Source: Lama glama (taxonomy: Eukaryota). Taken from it: DNA of 64,000 nt. Positions 53,975 to 56,725 of this stretch are shown one piece after another. A model generated the notes under the pieces. The model saw only the letters and a list, made by a program, of their open reading frames with translations, was not told the origin of the DNA and made no database searches. The stretch lies in the NCBI GenBank assembly GCA_028534125.1, contig CM052832.1:34596001-34660000 (forward strand), in the 5' to 3' direction. The translations under genes and the position numbers were made by a program. How positions within the stretch are numbered: position 1 is the first letter of the stretch; the number at the start of each line of letters is the position of its first letter.

Positions 53975-54119
53975 CATTTTCACAGGATGGGCCTTGCCAG
54001 TGGTGGCTGCGGGGTCCAAAGGCCACAGGACACTGGTACGGGATCTCTGGGTGCGGCTGATCAGGGACGAACTCCCTCCAGCCTCGGTCGTGGGGCGGGA
54101 TCATGTAGTTGTGAACCTG
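53975..54119 (-). CDS. IRF4: IRF4 exon 5 (tandem CAGCAG acceptor; alternative start 54116)
   Basis: ctccag|CAG|GTT ... |gtaagg; 145 nt; QVHNYMIPPHDRGWREFVPDQPHPEIPYQCPVAFGPRSHHWQGPSCEN(G). Confidence 0.96.
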
Positions 54120-54299
54120 CTGGAGGGACCAGAGTGGAGCTTGAGGGGAGCCACCAGCTCAGGGGGCGGCCTCGAGGAGTCCTGCAAACTCCTCGGGAAC
54201 CTCTTGTGTGGCCGGCGGCCAAATTGTCTTATCATCCGAGAAGGCTTGGTGGAAACTCGCCACGAAGAACGAAAAGCACAGTGGAGACAGTGTTGTAAA

Positions 54300-54440
54300 G
54301 CTCATCACATGGTTAAACCTGCACCAGACGCGCTGCCGGGAAATGCGTCTTCTCCCACCCAGCAGAGCGGATCAAACAGAGCTGTAATTCACAGCAGTTG
54401 AGTCTGCAGGGATCATCTGCCCTGTGGTTTCACATGATAA
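54300..54440. promoter_or_regulatory. IRF4: Ortholog of the IRF4 intron-4 melanocyte enhancer (human rs12203592 region)
   Basis: 54322-54372 aligns without gaps to the recalled 51-nt human SNP flank; orthologous base 54347 is 383 nt from the exon 4 donor (human recalled as c.492+386); M-boxes TCACATGG 54305-54312 and TCACATGA 54430-54437. Confidence 0.7.
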
Positions 54441-54729
54441 AGCCCTGGTTCCAGAAGCTTTGACTTCCACAAAAGGCCTGTTTCCCAGATTTCAGCATCC
54501 GTAGTAGCATCTGGCCAACAGGCAGACACTCCCGCCCTCCTCCGCCTGAAACCTGCTCCCACGGCAACACCAGGTGGGAAGCCAGGCAGTCACCCAGTGG
54601 CCCAGGGTTTGCCTTGGCTGTTTGACTAAGAGCAAAAATGAAGTTCTGCTGTTTTGTCTTGGGTCTCTTCCGCTGTGTGTGCCTCACACAGACCCAGCCT
54701 CCCCTTCCTGAAGCCCTGCCCTCCCATAC

Positions 54730-54818
54730 CTGAGCCGGGAGTGGGGTGTAAGGTGCTGTCACGCTGTAGGGGTGGCTCATGGGCAGCTGTGGGTCCTCCA
54801 GGGCCAGCTGCTTTGCTC
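54730..54818 (-). CDS. IRF4: IRF4 exon 4
   Basis: tcag| ... |gtatgg; 89 nt; (G)AKQLALEDPQLPMSHPYSVTAPYTPLPAQ. Confidence 0.96.
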
Positions 54819-55230: not shown

Positions 55231-55591
55231 TAAGATGAATGGCAACAACATCTGGACTGTGTGCGCCTCCCTTCTACAAAACAGTTAATCATGAGAGAAC
55301 TGATAGAGAAGTAACGGTTCGAACAGCCTTTTCATTTTTGGTTTGGAAATTTGGCCCACATCTTAGCAGAACTGGAAAACATACATGCACGCACACACAG
55401 GTAGAGACTTGGAGTCTGAGAAATTAGCCTGCGCTGGAGAATTTCCATGTGTGACCCAAATAGCTTGCTGGGCTTGAATGGGAGGCTGAGGCTGGCAGAC
55501 AGGCTACAAAAAAACCAAGACCAGAAAAAGAGGCCCCGAGATTGAAATTAAGGCGTTAAAGTGGCGGCAGCCCCAGTCCAGGAAGCCCTAC

Positions 55592-55778
55592 CTTTCTTGG
55601 CGCCCTCGGGGACGATCCTGTACACTTTGTAGGGGTCCGAGATGTCCAGCTGGCTCCGCTCCACCAGCTCCTCGAAGTCGTTGCTCTTGTTCAGAGCACA
55701 TCGCAAACGTGTCTTCCAGGTAGGAGGGTCTGGCTTGTCGATGCCTTCTCGAAACTTTCCTTTGAATAGTGCCCAAGC
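55592..55778 (-). CDS. IRF4: IRF4 exon 3 (DNA-binding domain, C-terminal half)
   Basis: ccag| ... |gtaggg; 187 nt; AWALFKGKFREGIDKPDPPTWKTRLRCALNKSNDFEELVERSQLDISDPYKVYRIVPEGAKK(G). Confidence 0.98.
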
Positions 55779-56725
55779 CTGGGTGGAAGGAAGAGGGGGG
55801 AGGGTAAAATGTAGATCTTTCAGAAAAGAATCTGTGAACTGTATTTCTAAAGGAAAGAACAGTGTTAGGGCTTCAGATTCACAGGGTTGCCAGAACTGTG
55901 GAACAGAAAGATGCCAGGTTTTTGTGAAAGGTGCGTGAGGCTGCAGGACCCCTGGAAAGGGCCCCGCCCACCCAGCGTCTGAAGCGGGATAGGTTGGAAG
56001 TAGGGGCAGAGCTGTGGGGCGAGGGGCCGCCCACAGAGCACCTCTGGCCATCATTCGATCTGAGATGCTCTGAGGCAAGTTCCCTGAGGAAGTCCCCTCT
56101 GCTCTGCCCACAGGTGGTAGGGCTGAGTCTGAAAGCACAGGTCACTGGGTAAACTGCCCAAGGGGGAAGCGGTCATGACAGGGACACACACGGGGGGCGA
56201 GGGCAAACCGGTAGAGAGAGGCCCAAACAGAGGCCCTGAGAGGGAGAGAGAAGAAGAGGGTAGGCGCGAGAGCCTGCGAAAACTTCCCGGAGAGAAACTT
56301 GGAGAGACCGAGTCGGACCGAGATGACAGAGGGAGAAACACTGAAAGGGAAGGGCCCGAGAGAGCCGGGGGAGAGAGTGCAAGTCAGAGAGGGAGACGCG
56401 CCGAAGGGAAAGCGCCCGGAGCGGAGCCGGAGCGAGCACAACGGAGACGCAGGCCCCGGCGCCCGCGGCGCTGCCGGCAGGGGACGAGCGCCACGCGCGC
56501 GGGTCAGCCGCGGCGAGGAGGGCTCCGGCGCTCACCGGGGGGCTCCGGCGGAAGCAGAGGCGCCGTCTTTGGACGGCCCCACCGCCGGGAGAGCCCCCCG
56601 CGTCCGACCCCCCGGGTTCCGCGCGCGCCCCACGCGCCTCCCTCAGAGAGACTGAAGCCCCCCCCCCTTCCCACAGGGCCTCGCCCGCGTGCCCCTCCCC
56701 GCTGGGGGCCGCAGCCGGGCGCCGG

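What the first reader, a model, noticed from the sequence alone, without database searches (positions are those of the whole stretch)
54300..54440. IRF4 pigmentation enhancer ortholog keeps MITF boxes but has a changed rs12203592/TFAP2A context
Seen: 54322-54372 aligns ungapped to the recalled human flank. On the gene strand human reads AGAAGG[C]AAATTCCCC and this genome reads AGAAGA[C]GCATTTCCC. The SNP base itself (54347) is the ancestral C but its neighbours differ, while two M-boxes (54305-54312, 54430-54437) are intact. Established: in human the T allele weakens TFAP2A binding, lowers IRF4 and TYR in melanocytes, and lightens pigmentation. Inference: this lineage may have lost or relocated the TFAP2A input (a GCC-containing stretch lies ~10 nt away), making it a candidate for coat or fibre colour regulation.
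Basis: partly seen in the sequence, partly recalled or inferred. Interest (0 to 1): 0.7.

Follow-up and report, generated by a model that had tools for sequence, protein, structure and literature searches.

The report
Camelid IRF4 pigment enhancer, GC-rewritten patch
This is the camelid copy of a known human pigment-cell switch inside the IRF4 gene: its main MITF binding site is unchanged, the bases around the human hair-and-freckle variant differ and likely changed on the camelid branch, probably through a recombination bias towards G and C, and nothing found here ties it to coat colour.

Summary
Real but modest. The window is camelid IRF4 intron 4. A published human enhancer sequence aligns ungapped over 168 bases (128 identical, counted by eye) and puts 54347 on rs12203592. 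The MITF+RUNX core is nearly invariant (28/30). The second box is not 'kept': it is closer to the MITF consensus than the human one. A whale-type outgroup, read from codons of a chance reading frame, sides with human at -1 and +1, so those changes look camelid-derived. They belong to a ~60-base patch of extra, mostly A/T-to-G/C changes (10:2, against 5:10 elsewhere), 185 kb from the contig end; GC-biased gene conversion is the likely cause. The patch removes the human GGC half-site and a weak RUNX site and puts the SNP base in a CpG. The human SNP site is itself a poor TFAP2 match (5/12). The proposed relocated GCC is background, and the best AP-2alpha match in the intron is identical in both species. 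No camelid polymorphism data could be obtained, and no camelid colour paper seen names IRF4. The scan's notes hold no look-alike of this stretch. Main use: a natural test of TFAP2A-loss versus ZEB-gain models of rs12203592.

The parts
54730..54818 (-). IRF4 exon 4 (5' boundary of intron 4)
   Evidence: AG/GT borders; 100% to alpaca IRF4 P0001 by tblastn
53975..54119 (-). IRF4 exon 5 (3' boundary of intron 4), tandem CAG-CAG acceptor
54514..54523 (-). GCC-N4-GGC TFAP2-like palindrome; first 9 bases identical in human, in a 14/15 conserved block
   Evidence: about 2 expected by chance per intron; human by eye; N4 spacing is recalled knowledge
54430..54437 (-). MITF box 1 (TCATGTGA), identical to the human site mutated in reporter assays
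   Evidence: 9/10 to the MITF consensus, 0.05 expected; human site and mutant; activity loss
54422..54431 (-). RUNX site, perfect consensus, identical in human
   Evidence: 10/10, 0.03 expected
54417..54428 (+). best AP-2alpha consensus match in the intron (9/12), overlapping the RUNX site, identical in human
   Evidence: about 1 expected by chance, so weak alone
54374..54393 (-). ortholog of human SOX dimer site 1; 18/20 identical, but each half-site has one change (54386, 54379); the cetacean-type outgroup also lacks the human base at both
54327..54387 (.). patch of camelid-versus-cetacean differences, mostly A/T to G/C (12 of 34 fixed bases; 10:2)
54347..54347 (-). base orthologous to rs12203592; C as in the human reference allele, here inside a CpG (54346-54347)
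54316..54321 (-). ZEB-type CAGGT site, kept; one of two human ZEB sites whose joint mutation raised reporter activity (the other, upstream, is absent here)
54305..54312 (-). MITF box 2 (CCATGTGA); human has CATATG at the homologous, reporter-tested site
   Evidence: 8/10 to consensus, 0.87 expected
54275..54293 (-). ortholog of human SOX dimer site 2; strong half CATTGT reads CACTGT (54281), next to a deletion of 10 or more bases against human and the cetacean-type sequence

Best explanation
This is the camelid ortholog of the human IRF4 intron-4 melanocyte enhancer, predicted to be still driven by its unchanged MITF-RUNX core, and the bases around the rs12203592 position were likely rewritten on the camelid branch, probably by GC-biased gene conversion near the chromosome end rather than by selection on colour. 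Shown: orthology, SNP placement, the intact core, the differing flank, the subtelomeric GC-rich setting. Inferred: that the changes are camelid-derived (one outgroup, read from codons), that gene conversion caused them, and that enhancer output changes little because losses (GGC half-site, weak second RUNX site) are offset by a better second MITF box, loss of one ZEB repressor site and retained TFAP2-like sites. Untested: activity in camelid melanocytes, TFAP2A binding, variation among camelids.
For: Ungapped 128/168 identity to the published human enhancer, with 28/30 in the MITF-RUNX block and 18/20 in SOX site 1 against 25/40 in the SNP flank (by eye; Fisher p=0.001). At the 18 bases of 54327-54356 fixed by the cetacean-type codons, human differs at 1 and camelid at 8 (p=0.018), against 18 of 111 camelid-cetacean differences in the rest of the intron covered (p=0.010). 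A/T-to-G/C versus reverse: 10:2 in 54327-54387 against 5:10 elsewhere (p=0.019); human-to-camelid over the aligned block 25:9 (p=0.009). The site is 185 kb from the end of a 34.84-Mb contig; window GC 58% against 36% in two 10-kb samples at 20 and 30 Mb. [quoted passage not shown]
Against: The outgroup is one unnamed reading frame placed as cetacean by 21 exon-5 codons; only codon-fixed bases are known and the SNP base itself is undetermined. With the third of its three members (P0101) the contrast weakens to 7 versus 2 of 18 (p=0.12) and the rate test to p about 0.05. The window was chosen after seeing differences, so all p-values are post hoc. The -1 change that breaks GGC is G to A, against the GC bias. 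Exon 5 shows no camelid excess (1 weak-to-strong change among 77 comparable positions) and a 2-kb sample nearer the contig end is only 42% GC. No SOX10 match better than 8/10 remains in the intron although SOX sites are needed in human, so activity may be lower than assumed. Human-cetacean identity of 17/18 in the flank suggests the flank may be constrained elsewhere.
Confidence: 0.58

Rival explanations
1. The camelid flank removes a real TFAP2A contact, so all camelids would carry a fixed, T-allele-like weaker enhancer, partly compensated by the better second MITF box and loss of one ZEB site.
For: -1 G and +1 A are shared by human and the cetacean-type outgroup and changed in the camelid; human and cetacean agree at 17 of 18 fixed flank bases; reviews and introductions state that the SNP affects TFAP2A/MITF binding (passages).
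Against: The human site is a 5/12 match to the AP-2alpha consensus (by eye), camelid 4-5/12; better TFAP2-like matches are unchanged; the T allele can be explained by a new ZEB/SNAI motif; mouse Irf4 was not TFAP2A-dependent.
Confidence: 0.2
2. Plain neutral turnover of an unconstrained spacer; the apparent cluster and GC bias are sampling noise and no special process acted.
For: 3 of 6 nearest neighbours differing is ordinary (p=0.15-0.40) and the flank is not more diverged from human than the other non-core bases (25/40 versus 57/78, p=0.29); small numbers; weaker p-values with P0101.
Against: Rate and direction both depart from the rest of the same intron against the same outgroup (direction p=0.005-0.019); subtelomeric, GC-rich setting.
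Confidence: 0.16
3. The flank is a segregating or recently selected camelid variant that affects coat or fibre colour.
For: IRF4 affects pigmentation in human and mouse, and an IRF4-EXOC2 sweep was reported in a goat breed (passages); the SNP base now sits in a mutable CpG.
Against: Eight or more changes over 30 bases point to long accumulation, not one allele; IRF4 has 0 mentions in a camelid colour review and appears in 1 of 25 listed camelid/colour papers, a general ungulate review; the goat study found no plausible SNP in IRF4. No camelid variation data were obtained, so this is untested rather than excluded.
Confidence: 0.04
4. Assembly or alignment artefact.
For: Single assembled haplotype, no reads laid; human alignment done by eye.
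Against: Ungapped register over 168 bases, two independent published human sources, neighbouring exons match alpaca protein.
Confidence: 0.02

Closest known systems
Human IRF4 intron-4 melanocyte enhancer carrying rs12203592 (Praetorius 2013, not held, known here only through citing passages; Kircher 2019 PMC6687891; Minnoye 2020 PMC7706731 and preprint; Mauduit 2021 PMC8691835)
   Same: Same intron and position; MITF box 1, RUNX site, overlapping TFAP2-like match and downstream ZEB site unchanged; C at the SNP base.
   Different: GGC half-site at the SNP gone; second RUNX-like site gone; second E-box closer to MITF consensus; upstream ZEB site gone; strong halves of both SOX dimer sites each one base off; four CpGs in a 40-base flank that has none in human; a C>T here would give 7/10 instead of 9/10 to the ZEB1 consensus (by eye).
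GC-biased gene conversion tracts in subtelomeric mammalian DNA (recalled general knowledge, no paper read here)
   Same: Local cluster of lineage-specific weak-to-strong substitutions, CpG gain, chromosome-end position, GC-rich surroundings.
   Different: Very short (about 60 bases), few informative bases, one outgroup; no recombination or polymorphism-frequency data.
Binding-site turnover in orthologous melanocyte enhancers across dog, horse, pig, mouse and human (Minnoye 2020)
   Same: Point changes in SOX10, MITF and TFAP2 motifs between species in an alignable enhancer.
   Different: No camelid chromatin data exist in what was read; effect here is not measured.

Membership tests
Ortholog of the human IRF4 rs12203592 enhancer | Lies in IRF4 intron 4, single copy | tested here: met
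Ortholog of the human IRF4 rs12203592 enhancer | Aligns colinearly to the human element and places the SNP base | tested here: met
   primers and printed human sequence, compared by eye: 128/168 ungapped, SNP at 54347
Ortholog of the human IRF4 rs12203592 enhancer | MITF sites needed for activity | tested here: met
   box 1 identical, box 2 closer to consensus; sequence only
Ortholog of the human IRF4 rs12203592 enhancer | SOX10 dimer sites needed for activity | tested here: inconclusive
   both present but 8/10 with a core mismatch; site-1 states also non-human in the cetacean-type outgroup
Ortholog of the human IRF4 rs12203592 enhancer | Open chromatin, factor binding and reporter activity in melanocytes | not testable with these tools
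   no camelid melanocyte data reachable
TFAP2A binding site at or near the SNP | Match to GCCNNNGG or the AP-2alpha/AP-2gamma consensus at 54347 or at the GCC near 54335 | tested here: not met
   5/12 overlapping the SNP, 7/12 best in 54322-54372; nearest GCCNNNGG 128 or more bases away. Human site also fails (5/12 by eye)
GC-biased gene conversion tract | Lineage-specific excess of weak-to-strong substitutions in a cluster | tested here: met
   10:2 versus 5:10, p=0.019; rate p=0.01-0.05; post hoc, one outgroup
GC-biased gene conversion tract | High-recombination setting | tested here: inconclusive
   185 kb from contig end, GC 58%; no recombination map
GC-biased gene conversion tract | Higher frequency of derived G/C alleles in polymorphism data | not testable with these tools
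   no runs listed
Coat-colour regulatory variant | Segregates within the species and associates with colour | not testable with these tools
   no camelid variation obtained

The most novel reading that the evidence does not exclude
A burst of biased gene conversion rewired the camelid IRF4 pigment enhancer: it erased the switch that rs12203592 flips in humans, moved the element to a two-MITF-box design with one repressor site fewer, and put the SNP base and three more cytosines into CpGs, making melanocyte IRF4 output methylation-sensitive and prone to a parallel C>T variant. The camelid flank then serves as a natural probe that separates the TFAP2A-loss from the ZEB-gain model of the human variant.
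Probability: 0.12. Interest if true: 0.5.

Novelty: new member of a known kind. Interest (0 to 1): 0.24.

Why it matters
The human element is one of the best-studied pigmentation enhancers, yet two mechanisms are in print for its SNP (loss of TFAP2A binding; gain of a ZEB/SNAI repressor motif). The camelid flank removes the supposed TFAP2A half-site without creating the repressor motif, so it offers a cheap discriminating test. It also corrects a statement that this intron is not conserved in an artiodactyl (goat): here it aligns base for base. For camelid breeding it is a place worth genotyping, no more; a fixed difference from human cannot explain colour differences within a herd.

Tried and rejected
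Praetorius 2013 is not held under three identifiers, so the original TFAP2A evidence was not read. One of four Minnoye supplementary files could not be searched and bioRxiv supplements are closed; the figure showing which motifs carry MPRA effects is not held. An 18-base core pattern in metagenome contigs gave 4 hits, 0 of 4 aligning beyond the seed. Exon-5 search of prokaryote genomes gave 1 unrelated bacterial locus. The sequencing-run search (Hi-C libraries) listed none, so no reads were laid and camelid variation is unknown; none was listed, which is not evidence that none exists. No paper printed the 16-base core. A search with the frame covering the conserved core found no candidate; five window reading frames were not in the collection by exact match; the protein atlas could not read the query. 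Rejected readings: relocated TFAP2A site (background score); camelid-specific loss of SOX site 1 (first suspected from the human comparison, dropped because the cetacean-type frame is also non-human there); purely neutral spacer (my reading until, now a rival). Of 17 frames, 3 reach the SNP; only the cetacean-type one was counted. P0102/P0106 (unplaced mammal) was left out because two registers are possible, and P0092 because it is too diverged. Ruminant-type frames end before the SNP.

Full report
Gene and organism. IRF4 runs on the minus strand. Exon 3 (55592-55778) translates to 62 residues identical to IRF4 chains in the PDB; exons 4 and 5 have proper splice borders, so 54120-54729 is intron 4. 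Exon 7 is 100% identical to alpaca IRF4 and 93% or less to the other 82 proteins listed, so the genome is a camelid. A 271-base stretch over the finding has one match in G000.

Is 54347 the SNP? Yes. Two forensic papers print the human primers (PMC12111187, PMC12531009; passages). By eye the extension primer, which ends one base before the SNP, lies ungapped on 54371-54348 (17/24), the forward primer on 54423-54404 (17/20), and the amplicon is 124 bases against 126. Supplementary file 1 of Mauduit 2021 (PMC8691835; passages and supplement rows) prints the human enhancer and its tested mutants. By eye it aligns without gaps to 54489-54322 at 128/168. Identity is uneven: 28/30 in the MITF-RUNX block, 18/20 in SOX site 1, 25/40 around the SNP (core versus flank p=0.001). 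These counts are by eye, not from an aligner.

Motifs. Scored against consensus strings listed in Minnoye 2020's supplement, MITF box 1 is 9/10 and the adjacent RUNX site 10/10 (0.05 and 0.03 expected per intron); both are identical in human. Box 2 is CATGTG where human has CATATG; the human site was mutated as a MITF site, so it is homologous but not 'kept'. In the human reporter, mutating both MITF or both SOX sites brought activity near background in 4 of 4 replicates and mutating both ZEB sites raised it in 4 of 4 (I take IRF4_4-I and IRF4_1 to be the same construct). The camelid keeps one ZEB site and lacks the other. Both SOX dimer sites have lost a base of the strong half, and no SOX10 match above 8/10 remains.

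TFAP2A. That GCC lies where human has a RUNX-like TGTGGT. The human SNP site is also only a half-site (5/12 by eye). The best AP-2alpha match of the intron (9/12, 54417-54428, about 1 expected by chance) is identical in human, and a GCC-N4-GG at 54515-54523 is too. [quoted passage not shown] Seberg 2017 (PMC5352137, passages) reports that Irf4 was not TFAP2A-dependent in mouse melanocytes. The TFAP2A model itself was seen only as cited by others.

Which branch changed? No other mammal genome is held, but protein collections contain chance reading frames called on mammal contigs. The window's antisense frame found 5 of 284 candidates and 17 representatives; 3 of the 17 run through the SNP. One, P0101 with members P0104 and P0105, fits whale and dolphin IRF4 at 21 of 21 exon-5 codons against 19 for other artiodactyls. 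Its codons fix G at -1 and A at +1 like human, and C at +2 like the camelid; the SNP base is a third position and stays open. At 18 fixed bases in 54327-54356 human differs at 1 and the camelid at 8 (p=0.018), against 18 of 111 in the rest of the intron covered (p=0.010); over 54327-54387 the differences run 10:2 weak-to-strong, against 5:10 elsewhere (p=0.019). With P0101, which shares one camelid base, the figures are 7 versus 2 (p=0.12), p about 0.05 for rate and p=0.005 for direction. The same frame is non-human at both SOX-site-1 changes, so these are not camelid-specific. At the SOX-site-2 core base the cetacean codon is ambiguous and ruminant-type frames keep the human base. P0102/P0106 gives GG[n]A in one register but a different register by dynamic programming and was not counted.

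Mechanism. The locus is 185 kb from the end of a 34,835,487-base contig; the window is 58% GC with 46 CpG per kb, against 36% and 6 in two 10-kb samples at 20 and 30 Mb, though 42% in a 2-kb sample nearer the end. A short cluster of weak-to-strong changes in such a setting is the expected trace of GC-biased gene conversion (recalled knowledge). It left four CpGs in the 40-base flank, one holding the SNP base; the human flank has none. Against this: the -1 change is G to A, exon 5 shows no camelid excess, numbers are small and post hoc. I formed this reading before seeing two unchecked notes of this scan that propose the same process elsewhere in the genome; they are not evidence. The scan holds no look-alike of this stretch.

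Colour. No camelid variation was obtained. IRF4 occurs in 1 of the 25 listed papers of a search for IRF4, coat colour and camelid names (search listing, 1,796 papers matched) and 0 times in a review of llama and alpaca colour genetics that names MC1R, ASIP and KIT (PMC9374512, passages). A goat study saw a sweep over IRF4-EXOC2, no plausible SNP in IRF4, and called intron 4 not conserved by BLAST (PMC6039503, passages), while a human study lists the SNP region as conserved from opossum to cow (PMC3704782, passages). These searches cover open papers only. Kircher 2019 (passages; supplement without IRF4 data) and a DeepSCENIC preprint (passages) added no per-base values.

Verdict. The step to a lost or moved TFAP2A input is unproven, the relocated site is rejected, and the colour link has no support. 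It is an ortholog of a known enhancer with a small, probably mutation-driven rewrite; its value is as a natural test of how rs12203592 works.

Noticed in passing
P0092 (unnamed frame aligning to window 54111-54450): A GC-rich, unplaced non-artiodactyl mammal whose codons imply that both MITF E-boxes of this enhancer are broken; possible loss of the enhancer in another lineage.
   Followed up: partly
window 54275-54310; P0084, P0086, P0087, P0105, P0106: The stretch between SOX site 2 and MITF box 2 varies in length among mammals: long in human, cetacean-type and P0106, short in camelid and ruminant-type frames; ruminant-type codons also lack the box-2 E-box at the homologous place.
   Followed up: partly
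window 54114-54122: Tandem CAG-CAG acceptor at exon 5, matching the 450/451-residue IRF4 isoform pairs listed for many mammals.
   Followed up: no
window 55590-56138: The alpaca protein record P0001 (553 aa) reads through part of intron 2 with 100% identity to this window, which looks like a gene-model artefact.
   Followed up: no
window 54120-54729: Intron 4 is about 610 bases and the SNP position is only 228 bases from exon 5; frames from several other mammals show a similarly short distance, while the human sequence (first 400 bases seen) has not reached exon 5 at that distance.
   Followed up: no
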